From Spirochaetota bacterium (GTDB lineage: Bacteria > Spirochaetota > UBA6919 > CBDBPB01): a DNA stretch of 64,000 nt. Both the position numbers and the translations under genes were made by a program. Within the stretch, counting starts at the first letter, position 1, and every line of letters starts with the position of its first letter. Location of the stretch: NCBI GenBank assembly GCA_965208615.1, contig CBDBPB010000007.1, positions 128,001-192,000 on the forward strand, given 5' to 3'. Under the pieces are notes generated by a model. It ran no database searches. It was not told the DNA's origin and saw only the letters and a program-made list of their open reading frames with translations. Positions 12,937 through 44,134 of this stretch are shown here, one piece after another.

Positions 12937-12962
12937 GTTATATCCTTTAATGAATAAAATTT

Positions 12963-13532
12963 CTAATCCATGTTTATAATGTTTTTAATTTTGTTGTTAT
13001 ATGTGATCCACTTGCTTAAATTAGAATTGGGATCACGAGTTAAAGTTTTTAGCTTTCTCTTTAAGGATGACATTGTAAGAGAGTGCATTATTGTATTAAT
13101 GAGGGTATCCATAGCCTTACGGTTTAGAGATAGTTCTTTGGATGTCTCAAAAGCCTCAGCTATATTAGTTTTAGCCCTTAACTTTTTCTGATCAACATAG
13201 TCAGGATGATTTTTGATTTCTTGATCACTTCGTTTTTTTACGGTTACCTTCATGTTAGGTAGTTCTGAATGATATTTCTTTCTTCGATGATATTTTTCGT
13301 AATCATCTATATGGTGATATTCCTTTCTTAGTCTTGGATCATATTTTTCATAATCCTCATGATCAAGGTTTTCCATAGTATTTGGGTCTATGTAGTACAC
13401 ATATACGTCGTCTTTTATTGGATTAAATTGTTCGTCAAAGACATCTGGATTATTAACTAAAATATAATCCCCATACCGTCCTCTATGATCAATGTCAACA
13501 ACGTTGTTATTATTATCTATTCTTACAAACAT
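12963..13532 (-). CDS. Hypothetical phage protein, possible fibre assembly chaperone
   Basis: Lies between two fibre genes; RBS AGAGGG. Confidence 0.5.
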   Translation of the reverse strand: MFVRIDNNNNVVDIDHRGRYGDYILVNNPDVFDEQFNPIKDDVYVYYIDPNTMENLDHEDYEKYDPRLRKEYHHIDDYEKYHRRKKYHSELPNMKVTVKKRSDQEIKNHPDYVDQKKLRAKTNIAEAFETSKELSLNRKAMDTLINTIMHSLTMSSLKRKLKTLTRDPNSNLSKWITYNNKIKNIINMD

Positions 13533-13550
13533 AATTCCCTCTTTTTATAT

Positions 13551-16136: not shown

Positions 16137-16154
16137 AAGGCTATGCCGATCTAA

Positions 16155-17057: not shown

Positions 17058-17067
17058 ATCAATCTCC

Positions 17068-18507: not shown

Positions 18508-18543
18508 TTTTGTCTCCTTACTTTTTGCTGCAGATTAAACAAT

Positions 18544-19440
18544 CTAGGACCTAATAGCCACTCCGTAAAGTTCATCTCCATTTTCTACGTCTCTTTGTAT
18601 TTCCCAGTTTTCGCCGTCAGAGGAACTAAGTATAGTCTCTTTATCCCCCACAGCTATGAACTTATTATTTGCATAGGCAACTTTGTATAACCGTTTATCA
18701 GTGAAGTTTTTGTTATTATCCTTATCTATTATTTTAGTCCAATCTTTGTCGTCATTAGATGAGCTAAGGATAGTGCCACTCTTTCCCACAGCTATGAACT
18801 TATTATTACCGTATGAAACTCCCTCTAAGTCTTTATCAGTGAAGTTTTTGTTATTATCCTTTTCATTCACTATTTTAGTCCAGCTTTCGCCGTTATTAGA
18901 TGAGCTAAGGATAGTGCCATCCGCTCCCACAGCTATGAACTTATTATTACCGTATGAAACTCCCTCTAACTGATTAGTAGTTTCACTTGTTTGTTTAGTC
19001 CAAGTTTTTTCATTATCAGAGGAGCTAAGGATAGTGCCACTCTTTCCCACAGCTATAAACTTATTATTACCGTATGCAACTCCATATAAGTACTTCTCAG
19101 TGAACTTTTTGTTATCCTTATCTAGTATTTTAGTCCATATTTTTTCATTATCAGAGGAGCTAAGGATCCTACCCCAGTCTCCCACAGCTATGAACTTATT
19201 ATTTCCATAGGCAACTTCATTTAAGTAATTAGTAGTTCCACTTGTTTGTTCAGTCCAGCTTTCGCCGTCAGAGGAGCTAAGGATAGTGCCACCCGCTCCC
19301 ACAGCTATGAACTTATTATTACCGTATGCAACTTCATGTAAGGCTTTATCAGTAAAGTTTTTGTTACCATCATCTTTATTTACTATTTTAGTCCAATCTT
19401 TGCCATCATTAGAGCCAAGGATAGAACCACTTTTTCCCAC
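18544..19440 (-). CDS. Beta-propeller repeat protein, probably the C-terminal part of the upstream tail-protein-I-like gene
   Basis: ~7 blades of the same repeat as fibre B; frame stays open upstream to the TAA at 19594-19596. Confidence 0.7.
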   Translation of the reverse strand: MGKSGSILGSNDGKDWTKIVNKDDGNKNFTDKALHEVAYGNNKFIAVGAGGTILSSSDGESWTEQTSGTTNYLNEVAYGNNKFIAVGDWGRILSSSDNEKIWTKILDKDNKKFTEKYLYGVAYGNNKFIAVGKSGTILSSSDNEKTWTKQTSETTNQLEGVSYGNNKFIAVGADGTILSSSNNGESWTKIVNEKDNNKNFTDKDLEGVSYGNNKFIAVGKSGTILSSSNDDKDWTKIIDKDNNKNFTDKRLYKVAYANNKFIAVGDKETILSSSDGENWEIQRDVENGDELYGVAIRS

Positions 19441-19593: not shown

Positions 19594-20344
19594 TTAGTTT
19601 TCTTTATTCCGTTTACGTTCTAATTGGTTGTACTTAAGTTTATAGTGGTCCAATATCTTTTTTATAGCCTTTTTACCTGTATAAGGCATGAGGTAAACAC
19701 CTTGATAAGGCTCAACAATATCATCAAGGGTTCTTTTAATGAGGTCTATATTTATACCAGGCATATTGAAGAAGCGTATATAAGCTCTGGACCAAGTTCT
19801 CTTATGTGAGGTAATAAAGCTAAGTTTTTCGCTTTTGTCTTCGTCACTATTTTCGCTTTTGTTTTTAAGAATTCTAATGGTAAGATCGTGTTCATCATCA
19901 ATTGAATTTATATTTAAGTTTTTACTATAAAACTCTAAAAACTTTTTAATAGCCTCTCTTGGTATACCAGGGCTATTAGCACTATTAATCATTATCTCCT
20001 TGATTTTCTCTATATGTTTTCTAAAGTCACTATCTGATTCTTCTTTAACCTCTTTATTTTTAACCTCATCCTTACGACTAACTCCGTATAACTGGCCTAT
20101 AAGGTCTAAAAACCTTTTCTCAGCAGTATTCAAAAATAGTTGTTTGGCAAGGTAGTTTATCTTTTTTAGTGAGCGATCCTTAATTAGAATATCAAATATG
20201 GTATTATGGAACTTATAGATATTCGATTTCTTAGTAAGGCTGGTTATAGTAGGGGGGACAGTTACTCCAAACGTCTTTGTCAAAAGTTATATCCACCTCT
20301 GGAGCTGTTTTCTCAGTATCATCTGAATTAGCTGGATTACTCAT
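19594..20344 (-). CDS. Baseplate wedge / tail protein I-like (P2 gpI, Mu gp48 position); apparent frameshift near 20240
   Basis: LFLNTAEKRFLDLIGQLYGVSR...ESDSDFR motif; ATG 20344 overlaps the baseplate J stop and reads MSNP...DVWSNCPPYYN in another frame. Confidence 0.65.
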
Positions 20345-21670
20345 CTTGGAACCTCATTAAAATCTTCAAACTTTAACTTAGGCCAACCTTTATCTTTATA
20401 ATAATCTATTATAATATTAGGCTTAGGATCAATAATCCCTTTATTAATATCAATATCCTTCCAAGGCTGACCAGTATCGCTATCATTATTAGGAATCTTT
20501 ATGGAACCAGTCTTAATATTAAAAACATTAGGAGCGTTTATAATAAAGCTTTCCATTTTTTCTTTAACAAAGACATCTCCTGGATTAAACTTATTAAAAT
20601 ATTGATCAAGTGCATCTTTAATATCTTTTTCAAGGGGTTTAGTTTTTCTATAGTATATAGTAAGTTCAATTTTAATTGGTTGTACTTCAGCAAGACTTAC
20701 AAAAGCTCTCCAGTTAGCTAATGGCTTATGCTCTTTAGCATTAATCTTATTTTCGATATCTTTAGGATTAATACTAGCATTACTAGAGTCCTTATATCCT
20801 CTTACAATAATCCCAACAGAACCTTCACCATGCATTCGTGGTACAATCTTTGCTTCTTTTACTAATTCTTGTGATTCAGCTTTAGCTTTAAACCATCCAA
20901 TAGATCCCTCTACTGAACCGCTAGCACTATGTATGATTCTTTGTCTAAAATCGTCATCGCTTTCTTTGTCTATACCTCCTCCGATAATGCTTTTATTTCT
21001 TACATAATCAAAATGTTGAACAGCGGTTGATATTTCTGTTATCATTGCCCCATTTATACTTATCCCCGCCTTTTAAGGCTATTACAGGCACTTCTACACG
21101 ATATACCTTTTTATCATCGTCATCAATGGTATTATCCTCATAAGGCTTGGTTTCTTCATTAATTTCAACATCATTTAGTGTTTTAAACTTCAAAGGCTCA
21201 TTGTTAATAGTACTTTTAGCAGCCACAATATTACCTTTCTTAAATGTATAAGTGATTTTAGGCTTAGTGGTAGCACCAACATACACCTTTCCAACGGCAT
21301 TAGTTAGGATTTTACGCTCTATACTATATCTTTGTGCATGTAGGTCAAGCCATTCGTCTTCAGCGGTCTGTACAAGCATTTGTTTTTTAAGCTCTTCAAT
21401 ACCCTTATCTAAGACTTCATACTGCATGAGGGCGAATATCTTTAACACTCTCATTATTTTACCTTGTGGTCTTAAGTTAGAGATACTTTTATCATCACTT
21501 TCATTATCAGGTTTAACAACATTATTATAAAAACGAGTAATTAAGTCCTCTAACAAGTCGTTAAACTCGGGTTCTTTTTCGATTATACTATCTAACAACA
21601 AGTTATAATCGCTTCGTGATAACTTCTTATCTTCGATAAGCTTTACTATTTCTTTTACACTTTCATTCAT
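20341..21670 (-). CDS. Baseplate J/gp47-like protein, split by a 1-nt frameshift near 21055
   Basis: QTAEDEWLDLHA in the first ORF; GGIDKESDDDFRQRI and PRMHGEGSV in the second; removing one A joins them (YNGAMITE). Confidence 0.8.
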
Positions 21671-22741: not shown

Positions 22742-22825
22742 TATATAAAAGCTAATGTAGAAACCTGATAAGGCAAGTACACTTATGCTATATATGCTAT
22801 ATATGCTACCTTTCTAAAAAAGTGA
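22742..22825 (-). promoter_or_regulatory. Late promoter with 9-bp direct repeats, upstream of the spike operon
   Basis: Minus strand: (TAGCATATA)x~3, then TTGCCT-N16-TAGCTT. Confidence 0.6.
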
Positions 22826-25881: not shown

Positions 25882-25961
25882 CATAAAAGCTAATGTAGAA
25901 AATTGATAAGACAAGCACACTTATGCTATATATGCTATATATGCTACCTTTCAGAAAAAGT
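25882..25961 (-). promoter_or_regulatory. Late promoter with 9-bp direct repeats, near copy of 22742-22825
   Basis: ataaaagctaatgtagaaa..tgataag.caag.acacttatgctatatatgctatatatgctacctttc is shared. Confidence 0.6.
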
Positions 25962-32443: not shown

Positions 32444-33616
32444 TTAACTAAGTTTTGGCATTGCATACATTGCATCAAATGTCATACTCTCAATATGACT
32501 ATTTTCATAAAGCTTAAAAGTTCCCTCTAGCTTACCCTTTATGATAAGTTCAGCCAGGTCAGCCACTGTCGTATTAGGGTTGTCAATAGCAGGTATATCA
32601 ATTTCATAACCATTAATCTCATCCCTACCCATCATACCGTCTAATGCAGTCTCCATTTTAAGCTTTAGATTTAGGATACCAGCTTTAGAACCAGCTACTA
32701 ACTTTGAACTTCCCTGATTAGACCTCAAAAATGGGAATACTGCATTATGTATTACTCTTAATGCCTTATCCATAACCCGTCCTGAGCTAATCTTTCTGAA
32801 ATCGCTTTTTGGCGGAGCCTTTAATAAACCAATACCAAAAAATGGATATTTACCAGCGGCTTCTCCATCTTCATAATAAAGACTGTTAAAGTTTTTATCA
32901 GTAAGAGCACTGTGATTATCTCTTATAACGCTGTCCCAGTCTTCAATACTAATTACGTCGTCTTGAGGGAATGCACCTGTCCATCCAATACTCTCTTGTA
33001 CCTTAGCCCTGCTTAGCGTTGCAAGAGCATGATTAGCAACACTAGTAGTCTCATTTAGTGTTTTTGACTTAACATCTTGATAGAATAAGGCTATATTCTT
33101 ACTATCAAGGCCGGCAAGATCTTTTAGCTTATCAATATTATCTTTACTCTCCACTTTATCCACACTAGCAATAGCCCTAACCCAACGCTTAGATTGACGC
33201 ATTTCCTTTATTTTAGTGTCTAGGGTTTTAAAAAAACTAGTGTCTATCTTAGGAATACTGGAATCAATAATAGGGTCTACAATGTGTATTATCCTAACTT
33301 CCTTAGCACTTTCATCATCTTTAACGGCTTTCAATGCATTAATTAAACTACCAGTATTTAGTTCATTACCCTCTAACCTAACACAATATAAGGTTGACCC
33401 CCCTAATGCAAAGTGCAATAAACATGATTTGTGTAGTGAACTATCTTTTCCATAAAGCTTTTCTGCATAGGATGCAGAAGTAACTTTTTCAACTTTACTA
33501 GTAGTAGTGTCTCCATTGTTTGCAGTACCAATCTTAGCAAAGATATTATCAGCACCTGCCACTAATGAATTACGATCACTTTCTTTAACTACAAATTTAA
33601 TTTTACTATCACTCAT
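32444..33616 (-). CDS. Tail sheath protein (DUF2586-like)
   Basis: ~390 aa; VQESIGW and SDFRKISSGRVMDKALR sheath motifs; RBS AGGAGG before ATG 33616. Confidence 0.8.
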   Translation of the reverse strand: MSDSKIKFVVKESDRNSLVAGADNIFAKIGTANNGDTTTSKVEKVTSASYAEKLYGKDSSLHKSCLLHFALGGSTLYCVRLEGNELNTGSLINALKAVKDDESAKEVRIIHIVDPIIDSSIPKIDTSFFKTLDTKIKEMRQSKRWVRAIASVDKVESKDNIDKLKDLAGLDSKNIALFYQDVKSKTLNETTSVANHALATLSRAKVQESIGWTGAFPQDDVISIEDWDSVIRDNHSALTDKNFNSLYYEDGEAAGKYPFFGIGLLKAPPKSDFRKISSGRVMDKALRVIHNAVFPFLRSNQGSSKLVAGSKAGILNLKLKMETALDGMMGRDEINGYEIDIPAIDNPNTTVADLAELIIKGKLEGTFKLYENSHIESMTFDAMYAMPKLS

Positions 33617-33738
33617 ACTTACCTCCTTTTGTTGAGTCATAATTAAACTTTAGATTTCTTTTCATTTTTCCTCCTGTCCACAAAATGGACTATCTATTAT
33701 TATTTTTTTAAAACGAACATTATCTGTTTTAAAACCTT

Positions 33739-34389
33739 TTACGAACTATCTTTCTTTTCATCTTTCAGGACTATTTCAAGTTTTTCCACAAGATGTATTG
33801 TCTCTTTTTCGTATATCCCTGTTTTGATAGCAAAATCCAGGATAATTTCTGTATGGCTTTTTGGAACTTCATTAGCCTTATCAGGTCTTTTTGTGTAGTG
33901 GTGATAATATCCGTGGAAGTCCCTATTACGGGTTATCGATATTATATCATAGTACCTAACTGTGCCGCTTTCTCTTTTGTGATAGGTTTTATTGTCGTGT
34001 TTTCTTTCGTATCTTAGGGATGGCGTTATATTTTCAGTAATCCTGCCTATGGTATTAGGTTCACCATATCGGTTATATAGAGCGCTGAAAAGCTTGTATA
34101 GAATATCGTCGTAGTCCTTATCTTTATTTATAATCAGCCTCAGCCTTAGGTTGTATAGAACTTCTAAAACTTGCTTTTCTACAAACTGATATTTTTTATC
34201 ATCGTCAATATCTTCAATACTTATGGGTCTAGTTTTTTGTTTAACTTTGCCATAAACGTTTAGGAACTCGGCCAAAGGACTTTTGAGATTATCATTAGAC
34301 CAATTATCCTGTTCGTGATAAAAAACATTTGCGTCTGTAAAGCCTATTTTAGTTAGCTTTTCTTTGATTAACTTTTTAACAGCCTGCAT
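33739..34389 (-). CDS. Putative tail terminator/completion protein
   Basis: First gene of the tail operon, upstream of the sheath; RBS AGGAG. Confidence 0.45.
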   Translation of the reverse strand: MQAVKKLIKEKLTKIGFTDANVFYHEQDNWSNDNLKSPLAEFLNVYGKVKQKTRPISIEDIDDDKKYQFVEKQVLEVLYNLRLRLIINKDKDYDDILYKLFSALYNRYGEPNTIGRITENITPSLRYERKHDNKTYHKRESGTVRYYDIISITRNRDFHGYYHHYTKRPDKANEVPKSHTEIILDFAIKTGIYEKETIHLVEKLEIVLKDEKKDSS

Positions 34390-34411: not shown

Positions 34412-34487
34412 AGTTAATACCTAAACTCTATTAGGCAAGGACAGTTATGCTATATATGCTATTTGTGCTACCTATCTGAAAAAAGTT
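34412..34487 (-). promoter_or_regulatory. Late promoter with 9-bp repeats for the sheath/tube operon
   Basis: TAGCACAAA-TAGCATATA-TAGCATAA, then TTGCCT-N16-TAACTT. Confidence 0.6.
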
Positions 34488-34703
34488 AGGAAAAAGCTGG
34501 GTATTCCATGAAAAACCTTGACTGACACAATAATGCTGAGGGTTTGGATAAAAAAATATTTTTATTTTAGCCAGAAATTGTATACCGAGAATATAAAAAA
34601 ACTAATTATTAAACAATTGCTATCTAGTTTGGCTATATGATATTATCTTTTAAAAAGAGAAGTAACTAGTCAAATCCAGCAAGTTGAGATTACTGACGTT
34701 AAA

Positions 34704-34943
34704 ATGGAAAAGCTTAAAAATGAGATAACTGGTGCTGAATCAAGGCTGAGAGTGGAGTTAAAAGCAGTCGAAAATAAAATATTAGCTGTGGAAAATAAGC
34801 TTGACAGTAAAATATCAGATGTCGAAAATAGACTTGATAATAAGATTAGTAAACTGGAAGGCATGATGAAGGTTGTTATAACGATAACATCGGCTACAGC
34901 AATAGGAATTGTCATGCTAATGCTTAAGGATATTTTTAAATAG
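34704..34943 (+). CDS. Bdr/DUF1640-like coiled-coil membrane protein, copy 1 (5'-truncated)
   Basis: Lacks the MITDDLRQE start and RBS; otherwise matches the other copies. Confidence 0.55.
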   Translation: MEKLKNEITGAESRLRVELKAVENKILAVENKLDSKISDVENRLDNKISKLEGMMKVVITITSATAIGIVMLMLKDIFK

Positions 34944-34980
34944 CCCGCTTGACAGTGCTATACCTCAAAAGGAGAGAAAT

Positions 34981-35301
34981 ATGATAACGGATGACCTAAG
35001 ACAGGAGATAAAAAGAGAAGTAACTAGTCAAATCCAGCAAGTTGAGATTACTGACGTTAAAATGGAAAAGCTTAAAAATGAGATAACTGGTGCTGAATCA
35101 AGGCTGAGAGTGGAGTTAAAAGCAGTCGAAAATAAAATATTAGCTGTGGAAAATAAGCTTGACAGTAAAATATCAGACGTGGAAAATAGACTTGATAATA
35201 AGATTAGTAAGCTGGAAGGCATGATGAAGGTTATTATAACGATAACATCGGCTACAGCAATAGGAATTGTCATGCTAATGCTTAAGGATATTTTTAAATA
35301 G
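34981..35301 (+). CDS. Bdr/DUF1640-like protein, copy 2
   Basis: KISDVENKLD repeats, C-terminal TM, RBS AAGGAG. Confidence 0.8.
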   Translation: MITDDLRQEIKREVTSQIQQVEITDVKMEKLKNEITGAESRLRVELKAVENKILAVENKLDSKISDVENRLDNKISKLEGMMKVIITITSATAIGIVMLMLKDIFK

Positions 35302-35338
35302 CCCGCTTGACAGTGCTATACCTCAAAAGGAGAGAAAT

Positions 35339-35659
35339 ATGATAACGGATGACCTAAGACAGGAGATAAAAAGAGAAGTAACTAGTCAAATCCAGCAAGT
35401 TGAGATTACTGACGTTAAAATGGAAAAGCTTAAAAATGAGATAACTGGTGCTGAATCAAGGCTGAGAGTGGAGTTAAAAGCAGTCGAAAATAAAATATTA
35501 GCTGTGGAAAATAAGCTTGACAGTAAAATATCAGATGTCGAAAATAGACTTGATAATAAGATTAGTAAACTGGAAGGCATGATGAAGGTTGTTATAACGA
35601 TAACATCGGCTACAGCAATAGGAATTGTCATGTTAATGCTTAAGGATATTTTTAAATAG
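35339..35659 (+). CDS. Bdr/DUF1640-like protein, copy 3
   Basis: As copy 2. Confidence 0.8.
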   Translation: MITDDLRQEIKREVTSQIQQVEITDVKMEKLKNEITGAESRLRVELKAVENKILAVENKLDSKISDVENRLDNKISKLEGMMKVVITITSATAIGIVMLMLKDIFK

Positions 35660-35696
35660 CCCGTTTAGCAGTGCTATACCTCAAAAGGAGAGAAAT

Positions 35697-35963
35697 ATGA
35701 TAACGGATGACCTAAGACAGGAGATAAAAAGAGAAGTAACTAGTCAAATCCAGCAAGTTGAGATTACTGACGTTAAAATGGAAAAGCTTAAAAACGAGAT
35801 AACTGGTGCTGAATCGAGGCTGAGGCTGGAGTTAAAAGAAGTGGAAAATAGACTTGATAATAAGATTAGTAAACTGGAAGGTATGATGAAGGTTATTATA
35901 ACGATAACATCGGCTACAGCAATAGGAATTGTCATGTTAATGCTTAAGGATATTTTTAAATAG
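35697..35963 (+). CDS. Bdr/DUF1640-like protein, copy 4 (shortest full copy, 88 aa)
   Basis: As copy 2, fewer repeats. Confidence 0.8.
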   Translation: MITDDLRQEIKREVTSQIQQVEITDVKMEKLKNEITGAESRLRLELKEVENRLDNKISKLEGMMKVIITITSATAIGIVMLMLKDIFK

Positions 35964-36000
35964 CCCGCTTAGCAGTGCTATACCTCAAAAGGAGAGAAAT

Positions 36001-36366
36001 ATGATAACGGATGACCTAAGACAGGAGATAAAAAGAGAAGTAACTAGTCAAATCCAGCAGTCTGAGATTACTGACGTTAAAATGGAAAAGCTTAAAAATG
36101 AGATAACTGGTGCTGAATCAAGGCTGAGAGTGGAGTTAAAAGCAGTCGAAAATAGACTTGATAATAAAATATCAGACGTGGAAAATAGACTTGACAGTAA
36201 AATATCAGACGTGGAAAATAAGCTTGATAATAAAATATCAGACGTGGAAAACAGGCTTGATAATAAGATTAGTAAGCTGGAAGGTATGATGAAGGTTATT
36301 ATAACGATAACATCGGCTACAGCAATAGGAATTGTCATGTTAATGCTTAAGGATATTTTTAAATAG
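36001..36366 (+). CDS. Bdr/DUF1640-like protein, copy 5 (121 aa)
   Basis: As copy 2, more repeats. Confidence 0.8.
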   Translation: MITDDLRQEIKREVTSQIQQSEITDVKMEKLKNEITGAESRLRVELKAVENRLDNKISDVENRLDSKISDVENKLDNKISDVENRLDNKISKLEGMMKVIITITSATAIGIVMLMLKDIFK

Positions 36367-36403
36367 CCCGCTTAGCAGTGCTATACCTCAAAAGGAGAGA
36401 AAT

Positions 36404-36757
36404 ATGATAACGGATGACCTAAGACAGGAGATAAAAAGAGAAGTAACTAGTCAAATCCAGCAAGTTGAGATTACTGACGTTAAAATGGAAAAGCTTAAAA
36501 ATGAGATAACTGGTGCTGAATCAAGGCTGAGAGTGGAGTTAAAAGCAGTCGAAAATAAAATATTAGCTGTGGAAAATAGACTTGACAGTAAAATATCAGA
36601 CGTGGAAAATAAGCTTGATAGTAAAATATCAGATGTCGAAAATAGACTTGATAATAAGATTAGTAAACTGGAAGGTATGATGAAGGTTATTATAACGATA
36701 ACATCGGCTACAGCAATAGGAATTGTCATGTTAATGCTTAAGGATATTTTTAAATAG
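36404..36757 (+). CDS. Bdr/DUF1640-like protein, copy 6 (117 aa)
   Basis: As copy 2. Confidence 0.8.
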   Translation: MITDDLRQEIKREVTSQIQQVEITDVKMEKLKNEITGAESRLRVELKAVENKILAVENRLDSKISDVENKLDSKISDVENRLDNKISKLEGMMKVIITITSATAIGIVMLMLKDIFK

Positions 36758-36794
36758 CCCGCTTGACAGTGCTATACCTCAAAAGGAGAGAAAT

Positions 36795-37193
36795 ATGATA
36801 ACGGATGACCTAAGACAGGAGATAAAAAGAGAAGTAACTAGTCAAATCCAGCAGTCTGAGATTACGGATGTTAAAATGGAAAAGCTTAAAAATGAGATAA
36901 CTGGTGCTGAATCGAGGCTGAGAGTGGAGTTAAAAGAAGTCGAAAATAGACTTGATAATAAAATATCAGATGTCGAAAATAAGCTTGGCAGTAAAATATC
37001 AGATGTCGAAAATAAGCTTGACAGTAAAATATCAGATGTCGAAAATAAGCTTGACAGTAAAATATCAGATGTCGAAAATAGACTTGATAATAAGATTAGT
37101 AAACTGGAAGGTATGATGAAGGTTATTATAACGATAACATCGGCTACAGCGATAGGAATTGTCATGCTAATGCTTAAGGATATTTTTAAATAG
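36795..37193 (+). CDS. Bdr/DUF1640-like protein, copy 7 (132 aa)
   Basis: As copy 2, most repeats. Confidence 0.8.
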   Translation: MITDDLRQEIKREVTSQIQQSEITDVKMEKLKNEITGAESRLRVELKEVENRLDNKISDVENKLGSKISDVENKLDSKISDVENKLDSKISDVENRLDNKISKLEGMMKVIITITSATAIGIVMLMLKDIFK

Positions 37194-37227: not shown

Positions 37228-37740
37228 TTATAAACTATATCCAATGCCGACTAACCAATAAAAATCCCCTTTATGTTTATATATATACTCATATCCCCCT
37301 GTCAGGAAGAAGTTAAAGCTTTTCAAAGCCTTAAAAGGACTAATACGTACAGAGGCCTCTGTTCTAAGTTTGTCATTGCTTACTCCAAAATTAATGGACA
37401 TGCTTATCCATTTGTGAGCAAACTTTTTATTTCTTAACTTTTCGTATTCCTTTATCCAAAAGGTTTGCTTATCCAGACTGTTGTTTAGCTTAGTCCTTAC
37501 AGCAATAAGCTCATTAGTAATCTCTATACTCTGCTTTAGCAAAGCCTTATACCTTTTTCTGAGATTATAATTAACCTGCCTTAGCTCTATTATAACCCTA
37601 TTGGCATCCTCAAGTCCTTTATACAGGTCTATAGCGGCCTTTTTGTGATTGTTTTCATTATTTGCCTGTGCTATAGTGCTTATAACGCTCAAGGAGATTA
37701 TTAATATCCACTTTAGAGCGAACTTTTTTATTTTTCTCAA
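37228..37740 (-). CDS. Exported coiled-coil protein with C-terminal beta strands (u-spanin/OM-anchor-like)
   Basis: Signal peptide, long helix, amphipathic strands ending LVGIGYSL; last gene of the lysis operon. Confidence 0.45.
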   Translation of the reverse strand: MRKIKKFALKWILIISLSVISTIAQANNENNHKKAAIDLYKGLEDANRVIIELRQVNYNLRKRYKALLKQSIEITNELIAVRTKLNNSLDKQTFWIKEYEKLRNKKFAHKWISMSINFGVSNDKLRTEASVRISPFKALKSFNFFLTGGYEYIYKHKGDFYWLVGIGYSL

Positions 37741-37939
37741 ACTCTATTTCCTCTTTTTTAAGTTCATTTAGCTTTATTTTAATGGTTTTGATTTTTGAGT
37801 TATTATCTTTTTTATTTTTTTTAATTTCTTTTTTTCTTTCTATAAGATTATGCCAATTTAACTGGCTGTTCTTGTTTACCATAAAGAAAATAGCAATAGC
37901 TATTATAATAGCTATTGCGATAATTATAAGTTTTTTCAT
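37658..37939 (-). CDS. Membrane-anchored coiled-coil protein (i-spanin-like)
   Basis: N-terminal TM plus Lys-rich helix, in the lysis operon. Confidence 0.45.
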   Translation of the reverse strand: MKKLIIIAIAIIIAIAIFFMVNKNSQLNWHNLIERKKEIKKNKKDNNSKIKTIKIKLNELKKEEIEFEKNKKVRSKVDINNLLERYKHYSTGK

Positions 37940-38919: not shown

Positions 38920-39132
38920 CTAGCCATTATTGCTGTCCCTATTATCTAAATAGCTGTTTAATCCGTTGTGAGCCACATTACCCACGATATAACTAGCGCC
39001 AATGACCTCCACAACATCCACCCAGTTATCGCTATTTATTATATTATTCATAAGCAGTATGGTAGCGGATATTATAATTATAATAGTTACAATGAACTTT
39101 CTGCTTATGATAGAGCCAATTTTTTTATTCAT
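38920..39132 (-). CDS. Putative holin
   Basis: 70 aa, two TMs, SRKF motif, adjacent to the endolysin. Confidence 0.65.
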   Translation of the reverse strand: MNKKIGSIISRKFIVTIIIIISATILLMNNIINSDNWVDVVEVIGASYIVGNVAHNGLNSYLDNRDSNNG

Positions 39133-39590
39133 AGATAATTATTAGGCATAATGCCTTCCCAGAGTTTATAAGACCTCTTATTTTTTATGGGATAGCTTAC
39201 CATTAAGACTTTCCCGCCATAATCTTTATAATTTCTGTCTATGTGGAACCAAGGAATGCCGTCTATTCTGCCATTCCACTCCATAATAACTCTAAAACCG
39301 TTATTGGTGCTGAATTGGAACCAGTTCATAGATAATTTATATAATTTTATATTGTCCTCATAGAATTGTATATCTATAGCCTTACCCAGCCCGTGCGACC
39401 CCTTATCCTTTGGCCTATAGGTGCTATTAATCCTAATAGGTTCTTTTATGTATGACCTCAATTTTTGTATTAGTTCCATAGTGTGTATGAGGTTTCTTTT
39501 AATTTTGCCTGGCAGTTCCAGCCAATTATACGGGCAGTCATCAAGATTAGGGTTAACTATTTCGTTTATGGTAAAGTTAGTCCAATTCAT
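39129..39590 (-). CDS. Endolysin, peptidase M15 family
   Basis: INSTYR, SHGLGKAIDI and WFHID zinc-peptidase motifs. Confidence 0.85.
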   Translation of the reverse strand: MNWTNFTINEIVNPNLDDCPYNWLELPGKIKRNLIHTMELIQKLRSYIKEPIRINSTYRPKDKGSHGLGKAIDIQFYEDNIKLYKLSMNWFQFSTNNGFRVIMEWNGRIDGIPWFHIDRNYKDYGGKVLMVSYPIKNKRSYKLWEGIMPNNYL

Positions 39591-39874
39591 TTAAGAGCCT
39601 CTTTTGCGAACCATGCAATAAGTGCTAAACAGCCGGTTAACAATCCCCCTAATACTATTTCCATAATGCGTTTCCCCGCAGTCCTTGTATTAGTAAGGGT
39701 ATTAAGAGCTATACTATGTTCGTCGAGTTTTTTAAGAATTTCGTTATCAGTTATTTTTTGCTCGTTTACAGCCAGTTTAACATATTGCAAATCTTTTTTA
39801 ATTTCAGTTTGTCCAATTTGTAATAGTTTTATATCTTTTTCAGCTTCTTTTAGCCTTTCTTCAGGATCAGTCAT
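39587..39874 (-). CDS. XhlA-like coiled-coil + C-terminal TM lysis-associated protein
   Basis: ERLKEAEKDI helix, C-terminal TM, first gene of the lysis operon. Confidence 0.55.
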   Translation of the reverse strand: MTDPEERLKEAEKDIKLLQIGQTEIKKDLQYVKLAVNEQKITDNEILKKLDEHSIALNTLTNTRTAGKRIMEIVLGGLLTGCLALIAWFAKEALK

Positions 39875-39911: not shown

Positions 39912-39985
39912 AAATATATGTTCAGAAAAGCAATACGGCAAGTCTAAGAATGCTATAACTGCTATAAATGCTATTAGTGTTATTC
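39912..39985 (-). promoter_or_regulatory. Lysis operon promoter with degenerate 9-bp repeats
   Basis: tgctataac-tgctataaa-tgctattag on the plus strand; TTGCCG-N17-TATATT on the minus strand. Confidence 0.5.
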
Positions 39986-40053: not shown

Positions 40054-40239
40054 ATGGCAAACAAAAAGGAACTTTTAACAATAAAAGAGGCAGAGCTGAA
40101 GTACAGGATAGGGCGTAATACTTTATACAGTCTATATGAAGATGGGCTGATTAAGGGTTATAAGCCGGGCAAAAAGAAGATTTTTCTTTATAAGGATAGC
40201 ATAGAAAAATATTTGTTAGGCAAGTCGAACATAAATTGA
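40054..40239 (+). CDS. Excisionase/MerR-like HTH_17 DNA-binding protein
   Basis: LLTIKEA...IGRNTLY.L...G.I.G.K.G. Confidence 0.8.
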   Translation: MANKKELLTIKEAELKYRIGRNTLYSLYEDGLIKGYKPGKKKIFLYKDSIEKYLLGKSNIN

Positions 40240-40612: not shown

Positions 40613-41041
40613 CTAAGCGAGTTTTAGCATTACATCTATTTGTTTTTTATCGGCATTTTGTTCTTCTTTTTTATAGTGTAGAAAAAGGTTTACAATTTGC
40701 TCAGCCTTTTTCATTGGATCAATTTTAGCATTTAATTCTACGCATGCTTTTTCGGATAAATATATAATTTCAGTGAGTAAATCTATATCATTATTGTCAA
40801 TTTCATTATTTTCTTCATTGACAGCAAACATGGTACCAGAGCCAGTTAGGAGCCAATTTATACTTACGTTATATGTTTTTATGAGGTCAGCAAGCTGATG
40901 GAAGTTTAAGACACTTTCTCCACGTTCAACTCTGCTCAAGAAAGTCTGTTTTACCTTTATAGCATTGGCAACTTCTTCTTGTTTTATGTTTAGCATTTTT
41001 CTAAAATATTTAATTCTGTATCCTGGGTTCATACTATGCAC
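40613..41041 (-). CDS. XRE/CI-like phage repressor
   Basis: RIKYFRK...QEEVA...QTFLSRVERG...NVSINWLLTGSG. Confidence 0.9.
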   Translation of the reverse strand: MHSMNPGYRIKYFRKMLNIKQEEVANAIKVKQTFLSRVERGESVLNFHQLADLIKTYNVSINWLLTGSGTMFAVNEENNEIDNNDIDLLTEIIYLSEKACVELNAKIDPMKKAEQIVNLFLHYKKEEQNADKKQIDVMLKLA

Positions 41042-43023: not shown

Positions 43024-43593
43024 AAAACTTATTTGATTTTAACCATTTATATATAAAAACAAAAATAAATGGATCTTTATTAGTAAAAAAGTAATTTTTT
43101 TTATTTTTATCAAATTGATAAAATTTATCATTATGAATTCTTGATGTATTTTTGTACGGTGGATAACTTGTTATATTTATAATAAGTTAGCTTAATCTTT
43201 TATAAAAAAAAACAAAGTTACGCTGATATTTATTAGCAAAAAAAAATAAAATTACAAATTTTAGTTGACTTTAATGTTATATAGTTATATAATAAATATA
43301 TTAATTTATATACATAGTTAAATATACTAATAAAGAAATAGTGTTTACGTGTTATTATGTGTATGATTAATATGTAGTTAGAGAGAGGTTCAGGCAGTTT
43401 ATGCCTGCTTACCAATGGGTAATCCTAACGCTTACCGATAGGCGATATGGCTAATCGTTTACAGCGAGGCAACTGTGCGATTAGTCAGCTTTTTCAGGGA
43501 ATATCCTGCTTACCGATAGGACAATATTTCCCTTAGTGACAGATTGTTAAAGAGGGTTTGTTTACTGATAATGTTTTATTAGTGAAATTTAGT

Positions 43594-43666
43594 CGGGGTG
43601 TAGCTCAGTTGGCAGAGTGCTGGTTTTGGGAACCAGTTGTCGGAGGTTCAAGTCCTCTCACCCCGA
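43594..43666 (+). tRNA. tRNA-Pro(TGG)
   Basis: Cloverleaf; anticodon arm ctggt-tttggga-accag. Confidence 0.95.
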
Positions 43667-43671
43667 AAAAA

Positions 43672-43745
43672 GGGCCGGTAGCTCAGCTGGATAGAGCAAC
43701 AGCCTTCTAAGCTGTGGGTCGCAGGTTCGAATCTTGCTCGGCTCA
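43672..43745 (+). tRNA. tRNA-Arg(TCT)
   Basis: acagc-cttctaa-gctgt. Confidence 0.95.
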
Positions 43746-43749
43746 GTAT

Positions 43750-43821
43750 GGGGAGTGTAGTTCAATGGTAGAGCATTAGATTGTGGTTCTAATAACGCGG
43801 GTTCAATTCCCGTCATTCCCC
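43750..43821 (+). tRNA. tRNA-His(GTG)
   Basis: ttaga-ttgtggt-tctaa; G-1:C73 pair. Confidence 0.93.
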
Positions 43822-43827
43822 CAGTAG

Positions 43828-43901
43828 GCCTTCGTAGCTCAACTGGATAGAGCATCTGACTTCGGATCAGAGGGTTGAAGGTTCAAATCCTTCCGAGGGT
43901 A
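43828..43901 (+). tRNA. tRNA-Arg(TCG)
   Basis: tctga-cttcgga-tcaga. Confidence 0.93.
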
Positions 43902-43903
43902 GA

Positions 43904-43976
43904 GGGCCGTTAGCTCATTTGGTAGAGCAACTGACTCTTAATCAGTTGGTGGGAGGTTCGAGCCCTCCACGGCTCA
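43904..43976 (+). tRNA. tRNA-Lys(CTT)
   Basis: actga-ctcttaa-tcagt. Confidence 0.95.
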
Positions 43977-43980
43977 AAAA

Positions 43981-44061
43981 GCGAGAGTGGTGGAACTGGT
44001 AGACACGCAAGACTTAGAATCTTGTGCCTTTGGTGTGTGGGTTCAACTCCCACCTCTCGCA
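43981..44061 (+). tRNA. tRNA-Leu(TAG)
   Basis: caaga-cttagaa-tcttg; long variable arm. Confidence 0.95.
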
Positions 44062-44062
44062 T

Positions 44063-44134
44063 GCGGGAATAGTTCAGCGGTAGAACAGTACCTTGCCAAG
44101 GTGAAGGTCGCGGGTTCAAATCCCGTTTCCCGCT
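44063..44134 (+). tRNA. tRNA-Gly(GCC)
   Basis: acc-ttgccaa-ggt; acceptor stem gcgggaa/ttcccgc. Confidence 0.93.

What the first reader, a model, noticed from the sequence alone, without database searches (positions are those of the whole stretch)
34651..37193. Seven tandem Bdr-like genes of graded length replace the head module
Seven near-identical genes lie on the opposite strand between the lysis and tail operons, where Mu-like phages keep terminase, portal and capsid. They differ mainly in the number of 11-aa repeats (88, 106, 106, 117, 121, 132 aa, plus a truncated copy) and each has a C-terminal TM. Established: Borrelia Bdr proteins have this repeat+TM architecture, occur on cp32 prophages and have no known function. 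Inference: a gene accordion giving high dosage and a ladder of coiled-coil lengths, perhaps for self-immunity or lysis control. This could be a handle on Bdr function.
Basis: partly seen in the sequence, partly recalled or inferred. Interest (0 to 1): 0.8.

Follow-up and report, generated by a model that had tools for sequence, protein, structure and literature searches.

The report
Tandem headless Bdr-like membrane-stalk genes
A spirochaete's headless phage-tail gene cluster carries six and a half tandem copies of a small membrane-anchored coiled-coil gene, distantly like the Borrelia Bdr genes whose function is unknown; what the copies do is still unknown too.

Summary
Window 34651-37193 (+ strand) holds one 5'-truncated and six complete copies of a gene for 88-132 aa proteins. 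Each has a unique 47-aa N-terminus, 11-aa repeats of variable number and a C-terminal membrane helix. The + frame is under purifying selection (10 synonymous against 4 non-synonymous variable sites).

The array lies on the opposite strand between a lysis unit and a tail unit of a roughly 32-kb contractile-tail element with no detectable head genes. Each of the four minus-strand units has the same conserved promoter-like module. The host is an uncultured-type spirochaete, judged by GroEL.

"Bdr-like" is half right:
- The repeat core (K-I-x-x-V-E-N-x-L), the 11-aa period, the anchor and the length ladder all match Bdr.
- The domain by which NCBI names Bdr proteins (N-terminal, NF040499) is absent, and Pfam KID and DUF1640 thresholds are not met.
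- Profile comparison places Bdr itself in the head-stalk-anchor DUF1640/CCDC90-like class. The window proteins are a rare stalk-plus-anchor form without the head.
- A three-copy model supports a parallel in-register coiled coil.

Function is only inferred. I read the array as an independently transcribed (moron-like) operon of abundant inner-membrane stalks, most likely tuning the element's lysis or membrane step. Immunity and a generic scaffold role remain open.

The parts
34617..34646 (+). Candidate sigma-70-type promoter of the array (TTGCTA, 18 nt, TATTAT, with TG), ending 4 nt before the truncated first copy
   Evidence: Weak evidence: the scan found 38 promoter-like sites against 36.5 expected from shuffles, so there is no enrichment.
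34651..34943 (+). 5'-truncated first copy. It starts at CDS nucleotide 29, has no start codon or ribosome-binding site of its own, and has an internal ATG at 34704 that would give 79 aa.
34981..35301 (+). Copy 2, 106 aa (95+11n series)
35339..35659 (+). Copy 3, 106 aa (95+11n series)
35697..35963 (+). Copy 4, 88 aa, the shortest form (88+11n series, n=0)
36001..36366 (+). Copy 5, 121 aa (88+33)
36404..36757 (+). Copy 6, 117 aa (95+22)
36795..37193 (+). Copy 7, 132 aa (88+44). Its stop codon lies 34 nt from the stop of the convergent gene 37228-37740.
34448..34470 (-). Core of the promoter-like module of the tail unit (3x ATAGCA at 9-bp spacing as read on the - strand). It points away from the array.
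33739..34389 (-). First gene of the tail unit (216 aa, no family match), divergent from the array
32444..33640 (-). Tail sheath (DUF2586, phrog_907)
37228..37939 (-). Two overlapping genes at the end of the lysis unit. The 93-aa product has an N-terminal membrane helix and a charged helical region. The 170-aa product has a signal-like N-terminus and a coiled coil. This is a spanin-like layout with no family match.
38920..39132 (-). 70-aa membrane protein, holin-like by size and position only
39129..39590 (-). Endolysin-like protein (phrog_894 E 2.1e-7; Peptidase_M15_3 below threshold)
39587..39874 (-). First lysis-unit gene: 95 aa, helical N-part plus C-terminal membrane helix. The architecture resembles XhlA, but there is no Pfam match and no similarity to the array proteins.
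39951..39982 (-). Core of the promoter-like module of the lysis unit
40613..41041 (-). HTH_3 / CI-type repressor-like regulator at the edge of the element

Best explanation
SHOWN
- The array is a real, protein-coding, tandemly amplified operon: six complete cistrons with strong ribosome-binding sites, plus a 5'-truncated leader copy.
- The products are small tail-anchored membrane proteins: a 47-aa helical N-part, then 11-aa (hendecad) repeats of variable number, then one C-terminal membrane helix.
- They belong to the sequence neighbourhood of the KID-repeat / DUF1640 (CCDC90-like) / Bdr class but lack that class's N-terminal head. They are a stalk-plus-anchor-only form.
- Length differences come from 33-bp repeat gain and loss, plus one 4-residue deletion. 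Both changes keep the hydrophobic seam in register.
- The array sits on the opposite strand between the lysis unit and the tail unit of a contractile-tail element with no detectable head genes (tailocin-like). That element has four minus-strand units, each preceded by the same promoter-like module.

INFERRED
- The proteins form parallel, probably trimeric, coiled-coil stalks about 10-16 nm long on the cytoplasmic face of the inner membrane. The N-in topology is inferred from the lack of a signal peptide, and from the matrix-facing topology reported for the yeast homologues Put6/Put7.
- They are made in quantity from a promoter of their own, independently of the late units, like a phage moron.

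COMMITTED GUESS AT FUNCTION (about 0.25 on its own)
- The stalks act at the membrane to restrain or time the element's own holin-endolysin lysis step.
- Convergent transcription of the array into the 3' end of the lysis unit adds a second, RNA-level brake.
- The length ladder is mainly a by-product of repeat instability, filtered for an intact coiled coil.
For: Coding and selection
- Outside the repeats, 14 sites vary among the copies. In the + frame 10 are synonymous and 4 non-synonymous (3 codons, all conservative). About 79% of sites are non-synonymous, so the binomial P is 6e-5.
- The antisense frame gives 6:8.
- All 6 spacers carry AAGGAGAG.
- GC and AT skew are positive over the array and negative over the flanking minus-strand genes.

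Architecture
- One hydrophobic 19-mer lies 5 residues from the C-terminus in all 6 complete copies.
- The 11-aa repeats have hydrophobic residues at positions 2, 5 and 9.

Oligomer
- The three-copy model scored 0.71 against 0.00 for the best of 3 controls.
- That mark was reached by 20 of 30 proteins solved as pairs of one chain and by 1 of 23 solved as single chains. These counts hold only roughly, because my own alignment and three copies were used.
- The runs agree in at least 94% of contacts, and partner pLDDT is at least 88.
- Contacts are between equal residue numbers, spaced 4-3-4, from residue 6 to about 129.

Class
- BLASTP to a B. miyamotoi Bdr: 38% identity over 156 columns, collinear through the anchor.
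- hhalign to Bdr: 96%, E 4.6e-9, 35 columns.
- hhalign to a DUF1640-like set: 98.8%, E 1.1e-16, 56 columns.
- hhalign of Bdr against that same set: 99.7%, E 2.6e-26, 168 columns from head to anchor.
- Of 134 small remote hits, 41 match PF07798, 19 match KID and 66 have a C-terminal membrane helix.

Context
- Sheath, baseplate and fibre families are present and no terminase, portal or capsid family was found.
- Four conserved promoter-like modules all face the minus-strand genes.

Independent-unit habit in relatives
- In most Lyme-agent cp32s, bdr 'has its own promoter', and Bdr proteins are inner-membrane associated (PMC10016077, passages).
- DUF1640-like genes in phage APSE-1 and in a Bordetella avium phage are opposite-strand inserts among early genes.

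Lysis link
- The array abuts the lysis unit.
- In B31 cp32-3 one bdr lies about 650 bp downstream of the last gene of the blyA/blyB/BBA14 cluster.
- PBSX needs the small membrane protein XhlA together with its holin and endolysin (PMC5589764, passages).
- No terminator-like site lies in the 34 nt between the convergent stop codons. The first one on the + strand is at 37625-37640, inside the convergent gene.
Against: - There are no expression, localisation or phenotype data of any kind.
- The promoter call is weak: promoter-like sites are not enriched over shuffles (38 against 36.5).
- The first copy lacks a ribosome-binding site and start codon.
- The link to lysis genes is not general. The second bdr of each cp32 examined follows the partition genes, and the APSE-1 and Bordetella phage genes sit in early regions.
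- The lysis unit already has its own tail-anchored 95-aa protein, which shows no similarity to the array proteins.
- Profile matches of the array family to Bdr and to DUF1640-like proteins cover only the repeats and the stretch just before them (35 and 56 columns). Such repeats can converge.
- The DUF1640-like comparison set was picked from hits to the array profile, so one search is partly circular.
- Only a trimer was modelled. Dimers and tetramers were not compared, and coiled coils are easy passes for such models.
- A cytoplasmic stalk gives no obvious reason for seven copies of graded length.
Confidence: 0.5

Rival explanations
1. Self-immunity or superinfection exclusion. The stalks are made in uninduced cells and protect them at the inner membrane from the element's own particles, or from related phages and tailocins, after sister cells lyse.
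For: - The array has an opposite-strand, moron-like layout with its own candidate promoter.
- Relatives in two temperate phages have the same habit.
- Bdr proteins are made without phage induction (PMC10016077, passages).
- From general knowledge, recalled and not from any call: small prophage-encoded inner-membrane proteins are a common form of exclusion.
Against: - Only 5 residues follow the membrane helix and there is no signal peptide. Almost nothing would face the periplasm, where an incoming tail tube arrives.
- PADLOC gave only weak coiled-coil-type matches, best E 3.4e-5 to LmuB.
- No case of protein-based immunity to a contractile tailocin was found or searched for here.
Confidence: 0.2
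2. A generic membrane scaffold unrelated to the tail element. These would be DUF1640/Bdr-type stalks that organise or titrate host inner-membrane complexes, for example by forming mixed trimers with head-bearing host paralogues. The element merely carries them as cargo.
For: - The yeast members of the class are described as matrix-facing membrane proteins that form hetero-oligomeric complexes, and human MCUR1 as a scaffold factor (PMC7519068, abstract and passages).
- Bdr against the DUF1640-like set gives 99.7% over the full length.
- Bdr paralogues lie at several kinds of loci: 10 bdr genes interleaved with vlp/vsp genes on B. turicatae lp48, and beside partition genes on cp32.
- The array proteins lack the head, so they could only contribute a stalk.
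Against: - The close family is tiny: one full-length 50%-identity cluster among 1.84 billion representatives.
- In the only locus that can be read, it sits inside a tail element.
- No head-bearing paralogue was seen in the 64-kb window.
- Mixed trimers were not modelled.
Confidence: 0.2
3. A true Bdr orthologue array: the genes are members of the Borrelia Bdr family and share its unknown function.
For: - 484 of 512 plasmid records hit by tblastn are Borrelia/Borreliella; the match lies at an annotated bdr gene in 29 of the 30 rows listed.
- The 11-aa period and the K-I-x-x-V-E-N-x-L core are the same.
- Both have a C-terminal anchor and a length ladder.
- The host is a spirochaete.
Against: - The Bdr N-terminal domain NF040499 scores E 4.6e-29 and 4.5e-26 on two Bdr controls but gives no match at E<=0.01 on any of the array proteins scanned (copies 2, 4, 5 and 7) or on the close relatives P0006 and P0007.
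- Pfam KID is not reported.
- hhalign overlap with Bdr is 35 repeat columns only.
Confidence: 0.07
4. No function: a neutral or selfish amplification, or an assembly artefact.
For: - Exact repeats of 302 and 266 nt inside the array could confuse a short-read assembly.
- The first copy is truncated.
- No relatives could be examined in context.
Against: - The excess of synonymous changes (10:4, P 6e-5) and the intact frames and ribosome-binding sites in 6 of 6 full copies argue for maintained coding function.
- Assemblers usually collapse repeats and seldom expand them.
- Copies carry distinct SNP and repeat-number combinations.
Confidence: 0.05

Closest known systems
Borrelia Bdr family repetitive proteins (NCBIfam NF040499 Bdr_N_group1; Pfam PF02524 KID repeat)
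   Same: - 11-aa repeats with a K-I-x-x-V-E-N-x-L core, a C-terminal membrane helix that ends within a few residues of the C-terminus, and paralogues that differ in repeat number.
- Both are carried on phage-derived DNA in spirochaetes. One cp32 copy lies just downstream of the blyA/blyB lysis genes.
- Function is unknown in both.
   Different: - The array proteins have no Bdr N-terminal head (about 52 aa).
- They are shorter (88-132 aa, against 177-323 aa for the four Bdr proteins translated or aligned here; the gene lengths annotated on B. turicatae lp48 imply 66-323 aa).
- They are head-to-tail and 93-97% identical within the array, whereas bdr genes are interspersed.
- They are chromosomal, inside a tail element without detectable head genes in a non-Borrelia spirochaete.
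- 'KIS' stands where Bdr has 'KID'.
DUF1640 / CCDC90-like proteins (Pfam PF07798; human MCUR1/CCDC90B, yeast Put6/Put7, many bacterial and some phage members such as APSE-1 P47)
   Same: - Coiled-coil stalk followed by a C-terminal membrane helix.
- Hendecad K-I-x-x-V-E-x-R-L repeats in the bacterial members recovered here.
- Opposite-strand placement in two temperate phages.
   Different: - The head domain is missing.
- The best Pfam score among the three copies scanned is 24.1, against a gathering cut-off of 33.5.
- The trimeric head-stalk structure of this family is recalled from Adlakha et al. 2019. I saw that paper only as a reference-list entry and did not read it.
XhlA of the Bacillus subtilis defective prophage PBSX (Pfam PF10779)
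   Same: A small protein with a helical N-part and a C-terminal membrane helix, encoded beside the holin and endolysin of a phage-tail-like particle producer. All three PBSX genes are needed for vesicle release and, per an earlier report cited there, for lysis (PMC5589764, passages).
   Different: - The array proteins give no PF10779 match.
- The array is on the opposite strand.
- The position equivalent to xhlA is held by a different 95-aa gene (39587-39874), which is unrelated in sequence.
R-type (contractile) tailocins such as R-pyocins, as context for the array; the comparison is from recall
   Same: Regulator, lysis cassette, and sheath, tube, baseplate and fibre genes, with no head or packaging genes, lying between housekeeping genes next to a tRNA cluster.
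   Different: - An opposite-strand multi-copy membrane-protein operon between the lysis and tail units is not a feature I know of in described tailocins (recalled).
- The only search touching this found 2 papers holding both 'tailocin' and 'spirochete', neither on this subject.

Membership tests
Bdr family (Borrelia) | Conserved N-terminal Bdr domain (NCBIfam NF040499, 52 positions) | tested here: not met
   Two Bdr controls score E 4.6e-29 and 4.5e-26. Array copies 2, 4, 5 (P0001) and 7, and relatives P0006-P0010, give no match at E<=0.01.
Bdr family (Borrelia) | KID repeats (Pfam PF02524, 11 aa) | tested here: inconclusive
   PF02524 is not reported at E<=0.01 and is not among the best 25 of 55 families at E<=10 (ranks 26-55 were not shown). 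The period and core are nevertheless the same: hhalign to the Bdr repeats gives 96%, E 4.6e-9, and BLASTP gives 38% identity. Among the Bdr controls, P0011 matches KID at 40.6 bits; for P0013, KID is not among its best 25 of 42 families.
Bdr family (Borrelia) | C-terminal hydrophobic anchor | tested here: met
   A 19-mer with Kyte-Doolittle score 2.02-2.04 ends 5 residues from the C-terminus in 6 of 6 complete copies.
Bdr family (Borrelia) | Paralogues that differ mainly in repeat number | tested here: met
   Array: 88, 106, 106, 117, 121 and 132 aa. Borrelia turicatae lp48: 10 bdr genes of 201-972 nt.
Bdr family (Borrelia) | Carried on Borrelia linear or circular plasmids (cp32 prophages) | tested here: not met
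   The window has gyrB, glyS, tig, tyrS and groEL around the element. The best organism-labelled GroEL hits are Spirochaetota MAGs at 84% and 81% identity, not Borrelia.
Bdr family (Borrelia) | Inner-membrane association and expression without phage induction | not testable with these tools
   Stated for Bdr in PMC10016077 (passages). No data exist for the window.
DUF1640 / CCDC90-like (PF07798) | Pfam gathering score | tested here: not met
   24.1, 18.1 and 17.3 bits for three copies, against a cut-off of 33.5. The distant relative P0008 just passes (33.8).
DUF1640 / CCDC90-like (PF07798) | N-terminal head domain before the stalk | tested here: not met
   The head-bearing set A7 shares an 'FDTL...AG...QAE' head. 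The array family aligns to A7 only over its positions 30-85, whereas Bdr aligns from head to anchor.
DUF1640 / CCDC90-like (PF07798) | Coiled-coil stalk plus C-terminal membrane helix | tested here: met
DUF1640 / CCDC90-like (PF07798) | Trimeric parallel stalk (recalled for CCDC90B; that paper was not read) | tested here: inconclusive
   The three-copy model scored 0.71 against 0.00 for the best control, parallel and in register. Other copy numbers were not modelled.
XhlA (PF10779) | Pfam match | tested here: not met
   Not reported at E<=0.01 and not among the best 25 at E<=10.
XhlA (PF10779) | Encoded within the lysis cassette, co-directional with the holin and endolysin | tested here: not met
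   The array is convergent with the lysis unit. The co-directional position is taken by the unrelated 95-aa gene 39587-39874.
Contractile tailocin (context element) | Sheath, baseplate and fibre genes present | tested here: met
   DUF2586/phrog_907 sheath, Baseplate_J, baseplate hub and wedge PHROGs, and tail-fibre PHROGs. The gene order after the sheath parallels Flavobacterium phage FPSV-S1.
Contractile tailocin (context element) | No head, packaging or replication genes | tested here: met
   No terminase, portal, protease or capsid family was found among the ORFs scanned between 10163 and 43023. The only match in the PHROG 'head and packaging' category is phrog_32822 'virion structural protein', hit by two fibre-like proteins whose better hits are tail-fibre families. 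Caveat: about half of the scanned ORFs have no family match, so this depends on the sensitivity of the searches.
Contractile tailocin (context element) | Particles produced and bactericidal | not testable with these tools
   An experiment is needed. The Baseplate_J-like gene is split over two overlapping frames, so the element may be decaying.

The most novel reading that the evidence does not exclude
KID-repeat/Bdr proteins began as accessory membrane stalks of spirochaete phage-tail elements, and this array shows the minimal working module: stalk plus anchor, no head. The graded-length paralogues assemble as pure or mixed trimers into a dense layer on the cytoplasmic face of the inner membrane. 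That layer sets the threshold at which holins breach the membrane. Copy number and stalk length, both changeable by recombination, would then tune how often a cell commits suicide to release tail particles. The same logic would explain why Borrelia keeps dozens of Bdr length variants on its prophage plasmids.
Probability: 0.1. Interest if true: 0.8.

Novelty: new variant of a known kind. Interest (0 to 1): 0.5.

Why it matters
Bdr proteins are still described as having no known function (PMC10016077, 2023), and they are studied in an organism that is hard to manipulate.

This locus offers three things:
- A stripped-down relative (stalk and anchor only), with natural length variants, in a defined genetic setting next to lysis genes. 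It can be expressed and assayed in a surrogate host.
- Evidence that Bdr proteins are full-length relatives of the DUF1640/CCDC90-like head-stalk-anchor class (99.7% hhalign). I found no open paper that holds both terms. If this holds, structural knowledge from MCUR1/CCDC90B could be brought to bear on Bdr.
- An example of a tail element without detectable head genes in an environmental spirochaete, with four clearly marked promoter modules.

The value is limited because the function is unproven, the close family is known from very few sequences, and the host appears uncultured.

Tried and rejected
Looking for relatives in genomic context
- Genome-contig scan with the array alignment: 217 pattern matches, 0 confirmed.
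- Second scan with a sheath alignment: 52 pattern matches, 7 confirmed. All are Bacteroidota at 22-26% identity and too distant to use.
The contexts of P0006, P0007 and the second sheath paralogue P0015 therefore stayed unknown.

Searches with no useful result
- tblastn of the 132-aa protein against phages: 10 records, best E 4e-3. That best hit lies inside a 2775-nt tail-region gene of a Vibrio phage and was dropped.
- PADLOC: only weak matches to coiled-coil parts of LmuB, LeoA and ZorA. Not taken as defence-system evidence.
- PDB sequence search with the family profile: only weak coiled-coil hits (reovirus sigma-1 E 0.01; keratins).
- ESM Atlas: nearest clusters score 0.89-0.92, mostly unnamed. 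One Spirochaetota cluster has KID in 13% of members, and one Deinococcota DUF1640 cluster appeared. I treated these as leads only.

Specific ideas tested and dropped
- That the 95-aa tail-anchored protein of the lysis unit is a paralogue of the array proteins: no similarity and no Pfam family.
- That the antisense ORFs of 63-107 aa in the array are the real genes: rejected on the synonymous/non-synonymous pattern and on skew.
- A 10-mer search for shared operators between the array's upstream region and other intergenic regions gave only A/T runs. The TGCTAT motif was seen by eye in that output and then tested.

Literature not available
- Older Bdr papers (PMC101917, PMC2640845, PMC538826) are not held.
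- Adlakha et al. 2019 was seen only in a reference list.
- No supplements were consulted.

Full report
**1. The observation**

The + strand of window 34651-37193 carries seven head-to-tail units.
- ORFs of 106, 106, 88, 121, 117 and 132 aa start at 34981, 35339, 35697, 36001, 36404 and 36795. A first unit has homology that begins at 34651.
- Tandem Repeats Finder reports periods of 358 bp (3.4 copies, 97% matches, score 2302) and 403 bp (3.1 copies, 93%, score 2095), and 33-bp repeats inside the genes.
- All six spacers are 37 nt and carry AAGGAGAG a few bases before the ATG.
- The first unit starts at nucleotide 29 of the coding sequence. It therefore has no start codon or ribosome-binding site of its own, only an internal ATG at 34704.
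- A 30-mer from the anchor region occurs seven times in the 64-kb window, all in the array.

I add one detail: the lengths form two series, 88+11n (88, 121, 132) and 95+11n (106, 106, 117 and the truncated copy). The second series lacks four residues of one repeat, which turns one hendecad into a heptad.

**2. These are real genes on the + strand**

- Outside the repeat tract, 14 nucleotide sites vary among the copies. In the + frame 10 are synonymous and 4 are not; those 4 fall in three codons (V/S, V/L, V/I).
- About 79% of sites in these stretches are non-synonymous, so the chance of four or fewer is 6e-5.
- In the antisense frame, which also gives ORFs of 63-107 aa, the split is 6 to 8.
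- GC and AT skew are positive over the array and negative over the neighbouring minus-strand genes.

The copies have therefore diverged under purifying selection. This argues against a very recent, transient amplification. I cannot test the assembly. Exact repeats of 302 and 266 nt lie inside the array, so copy number and order need long reads.

**3. The protein**

- Each complete copy has a 47-aa N-part, then a run of 11-aa repeats of variable number (consensus K-I-S-D-V-E-N-[KR]-L-D-[SN]), then K-I-S-K-L-E-G-M-M-K.
- A hydrophobic 19-mer (Kyte-Doolittle 2.02-2.04) follows, with five final residues, KDIFK.
- There is no signal peptide. I therefore infer a tail-anchored protein with its N-part in the cytoplasm, 64-108 residues long, or about 10-16 nm as a helix.
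- A three-copy model supports a parallel, in-register coiled coil from residue 6 to about 129. The score was 0.71 against 0.00 for the best of three controls.
- That mark was reached by 20 of 30 proteins solved as pairs of one chain and by 1 of 23 solved as single chains. These counts hold only roughly, because my own alignment and three copies were used.
- The runs agree in at least 94% of contacts and partner pLDDT is at least 88. Contacts are spaced 4-3-4, which is a hendecad pattern.
- Only the trimer was modelled.

**4. The family**

- The word-indexed search of 5.8 billion proteins found 10 proteins at E<=1e-3. Five are the window's own copies. Two are close relatives: P0006 (110 aa, 52% identity) and P0007 (95 aa, 56%), both with a nearly identical anchor. 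Three are distant.
- A full HMMER scan of 1.84 billion representatives found one full-length cluster (P0006, E 2e-48). The other 263 hits at E<=1e-3 matched through the repeats.
- Of the best 150 hits, 134 are 350 aa or shorter, and 66 of those have a C-terminal hydrophobic helix by my simple criterion.
- Among those 134 proteins, 41 match Pfam CCDC90-like/DUF1640, 19 match KID and 4 match XhlA at E<=1e-3. The commonest matches are the generic helical families Apolipoprotein (119) and Baculo_PEP_C (94).
- The array proteins themselves stay below the DUF1640 cut-off (24.1 bits against 33.5). They give no KID or XhlA match.

**5. Is it Bdr?**

Evidence for a relationship:
- tblastn against 72,556 plasmids hit 512 records. 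Of these, 484 are Borrelia or Borreliella; 29 of the 30 rows listed lie at genes annotated 'Bdr family repetitive protein', at 39-46% identity and E 1e-4 to 4e-10.
- Bdr proteins translated from B. miyamotoi and B. turicatae plasmids have repeats N-K-I-D-T-V-E-N-N-L-N, the same 11-aa period and a C-terminal helix.
- BLASTP of the 132-aa copy against one of them gives 38% identity over 156 columns, collinear from the stretch before the repeats to the final lysine.

Evidence against membership:
- NCBI names Bdr proteins by an N-terminal 52-position domain (NF040499). It scores E 4.6e-29 and 4.5e-26 on the two controls. It is not found in any of the array proteins scanned (copies 2, 4, 5 and 7) or in P0006-P0010.
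- Profile-profile comparison of the array family with four Bdr proteins gives 96% probability, but over only 35 repeat columns.

Where Bdr itself belongs:
- Bdr aligns from head to anchor with a set of 12 bacterial DUF1640-like proteins (99.7%, E 2.6e-26, 168 columns).
- The array family aligns with that set over 56 columns only (98.8%). That set was chosen from hits to the array profile, so this comparison is partly circular.

My reading is that Bdr is the Borrelia branch of a wider head-stalk-anchor class. The array encodes a form of that class, or a convergent look-alike, that has the stalk and anchor but no head. It is Bdr-like in how it is built, but it is not a member of the Bdr family as that family is defined.

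**6. The surroundings**

Host and flanks:
- GroEL places the host among spirochaetes. Four of the six organism-labelled rows among the 120 listed are Spirochaetota or Spirochaetes MAGs, including the best (84% identity). One is a partial Verrucomicrobiae entry and one is an unclassified 'bacterium'.
- The element runs from about 11.5 to 43 kb. On the left lie glyS and a ribonucleotide reductase gene. On the right lie seven tRNA genes and tig.

Minus-strand genes, from right to left:
- An HTH repressor-like gene (40613-41041).
- A lysis unit:
  - a 95-aa tail-anchored helical protein;
  - an endolysin-like protein (phrog_894, E 2.1e-7);
  - a 70-aa membrane protein;
  - three small unknowns of 54, 140 and 97 aa;
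  - an overlapping pair with spanin-like features.
- The array, on the other strand.
- A 216-aa unknown, then the sheath (DUF2586, E 1.3e-23).
- Small proteins and a 552-aa protein in the tape-measure position.
- Baseplate hub and wedge proteins, and fibre-like proteins.

Missing head genes:
- No terminase, portal, protease or capsid family was found.
- The only match in the PHROG 'head and packaging' category is a 'virion structural protein' family, hit by two fibre-like proteins whose better hits are fibre families.
- The nearest phage sheaths are from Flavobacterium psychrophilum phages (26% identity).
- In FPSV-S1, the terminase, Mu gp29-like portal, ClpP-type protease and an unnamed 365-aa gene in the capsid position lie directly upstream of the sheath. 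The order after the sheath parallels the window.

The head module is therefore absent at the place where the array lies. That the array 'replaced' it remains an inference.

**7. Transcription units**

- A triple motif, TGCTAT at 9-bp spacing, occurs at four places (five overlapping matches; 0.05 expected by chance). All are on the + strand and all are intergenic: 22786, 25924, 34448 and 39951.
- Aligned on the minus strand, the four regions share about 70 conserved positions around 3x ATAGCA. Each lies tens of bases upstream of a minus-strand gene start.
- The element therefore has at least four similarly controlled minus-strand units. The array sits between the first (lysis) and second (tail) unit, not inside an operon, and none of these modules faces it.
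- The only promoter candidate for the array is TTGCTA-18-TATTAT at 34617-34646. It comes from a scan that is not enriched over shuffles.
- The array's last stop codon is 34 nt from the stop of the convergent gene 37228-37740, with no terminator-like site between them. The first such site on the + strand is at 37625-37640. Array transcripts would therefore run antisense into the end of the lysis unit, and lysis-unit transcripts would run antisense into the array.

**8. Comparison with relatives in mobile elements**

- In B31 cp32-3, one bdr gene lies about 650 bp downstream of the last gene of the blyA/blyB/BBA14 lysis cluster, and a second lies after the partition genes.
- In cp32-1 only the second bdr is present.
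- A B. miyamotoi plasmid has two bdr genes convergent with a tape-measure gene.
- B. turicatae lp48 has ten bdr genes of 201-972 nt among vlp/vsp genes.
- The 2023 review states that bdr next to mlp has its own promoter. It also states that Bdr proteins are inner-membrane associated and made during infection, and that their functions are undiscovered (PMC10016077, passages).
- DUF1640-like genes in phage APSE-1 (P47) and in a Bordetella avium phage lie on the opposite strand to the surrounding early genes.

The recurring feature is an independently oriented small gene in a temperate element. Closeness to lysis genes recurs in only some cases.

**9. What it most likely does**

Shown:
- A maintained, amplified operon of tail-anchored hendecad stalk proteins inside a tail element with no detectable head genes.

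Inferred:
- The proteins are abundant parallel (probably trimeric) stalks on the cytoplasmic face of the inner membrane, made independently of the late units.

Function:
- My committed guess, at about one chance in four, is that they restrain or time the element's own holin-endolysin step, with convergent transcription as a second brake.
- The precedent is PBSX. There the small membrane protein XhlA is needed together with the holin and endolysin (PMC5589764, passages).
- Against this: the lysis unit has its own unrelated tail-anchored protein, the link to lysis genes is not general, and nothing explains the need for graded lengths.
- I think the ladder is largely a by-product of 33-bp repeat instability, filtered for an unbroken coiled coil.
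- The rivals are immunity or exclusion (weakened because only five residues would face the periplasm), a generic scaffold or titrating role as cargo, true Bdr orthology, and no function or artefact.

**10. Novelty and verdict**

- The kind of protein is known (KID / DUF1640 / Bdr-type tail-anchored coiled coils).
- New here are the headless form, its head-to-tail amplification with a length ladder, and its place in a spirochaete tail element.
- I found no open paper that holds both 'Bdr' and 'DUF1640'. The search for 'tailocin' with 'spirochete' returned two papers, neither on this subject.
- I rate it a new variant of a known kind, with interest 0.5. It is a real and unusual locus, and a possible experimental handle on a long-open question. 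Its function is unproven and it comes from a lineage known only from sequence.

**11. Left unchecked**

- Read-level support for the array.
- The older Bdr literature and Adlakha et al. 2019, which I saw only as a citation.

Noticed in passing
window 22786-22808, 25924-25946, 34448-34470, 39951-39982 (with about 70 nt around each): Four copies of a conserved promoter-like module. On the minus strand it reads TTTTT..A.A.GG, then 3x (A)TAGCA at 9-bp spacing, then CTTGCC. Each copy lies upstream of a minus-strand unit of the tail element. Chance expectation for the core motif is 0.05 matches. It is probably the binding site of a late activator. The site at 39951 also lies 72 nt upstream of a + strand 61-aa HTH_17 (excisionase-like) ORF at 40054-40239.
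   Followed up: partly
window 34944-34980 and the five other array spacers: Each 37-nt spacer contains GTGCTATAC followed by CCTCAAAAGG. This resembles the outer edge of the promoter-like module (TGCTACCTnTCnnAAAAA on the + strand). The ancestral single gene may have started right beside such a module, and the duplicated unit may have included its edge.
   Followed up: partly
window 39587-39874 (-): The first gene of the lysis unit encodes a 95-aa protein with a helical N-part and a C-terminal membrane helix, and it overlaps the endolysin start by 4 nt. The architecture and position resemble XhlA, but there is no Pfam match and no similarity to the array proteins.
   Followed up: yes
window 37228-37939 (-): Two genes overlap by 83 nt. 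The 93-aa product has an N-terminal membrane helix and a charged helical region. The 170-aa product has a signal-like N-terminus without a lipobox cysteine, a coiled coil and a beta-rich C-terminus. The layout resembles an embedded or overlapped spanin pair, but the outer component does not look like a lipoprotein.
   Followed up: no
window 20341-21670 (-): The Baseplate_J-like protein is split into two ORFs in different frames that overlap by 38 nt (21008-21045). Together they cover consecutive parts of phrog_6 (profile positions 53-207 and 212-391 of 548). This could be a frameshift mutation, a sequencing error or a programmed shift. If it is a mutation, the element may be decaying.
   Followed up: partly
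window 43593-44134 (+): A cluster of seven tRNA genes (Pro, Arg, His, Arg, Lys, Leu, Gly) lies directly beyond the right end of the element and just before tig. It is a likely integration landmark.
   Followed up: no
outside the window, same contig (protein P0015): A second sheath paralogue (502 aa, 67% identity over the 76% of the query that aligns) is recorded on a contig of the same length as the window's (479,702 bases). The genome probably holds a second related tail element, which could not be fetched.
   Followed up: no
L010 and L011 (B. burgdorferi B31 cp32-1, cp32-3) against alignment A7: Bdr proteins align over their full length (head, repeats, anchor) with bacterial DUF1640/CCDC90-like proteins (hhalign 99.7%, E 2.6e-26). 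No open paper holding both 'Bdr' and 'DUF1640' was found.
   Followed up: partly
window 11527-19440 (-): The distal end of the element has two fibre-like paralogues (469 and 479 aa). It also has a 298-aa protein with BNR/beta-propeller matches and an 861-aa protein with weak glycosylhydrolase-like repeats. This suggests a complex or duplicated receptor-binding module.
   Followed up: no
window 490-1878 (+): A 462-aa protein has a weak SagB-type dehydrogenase domain match (E 2.4e-8, below cut-off) at the left edge of the window. It may belong to a peptide-modification cluster.
   Followed up: no
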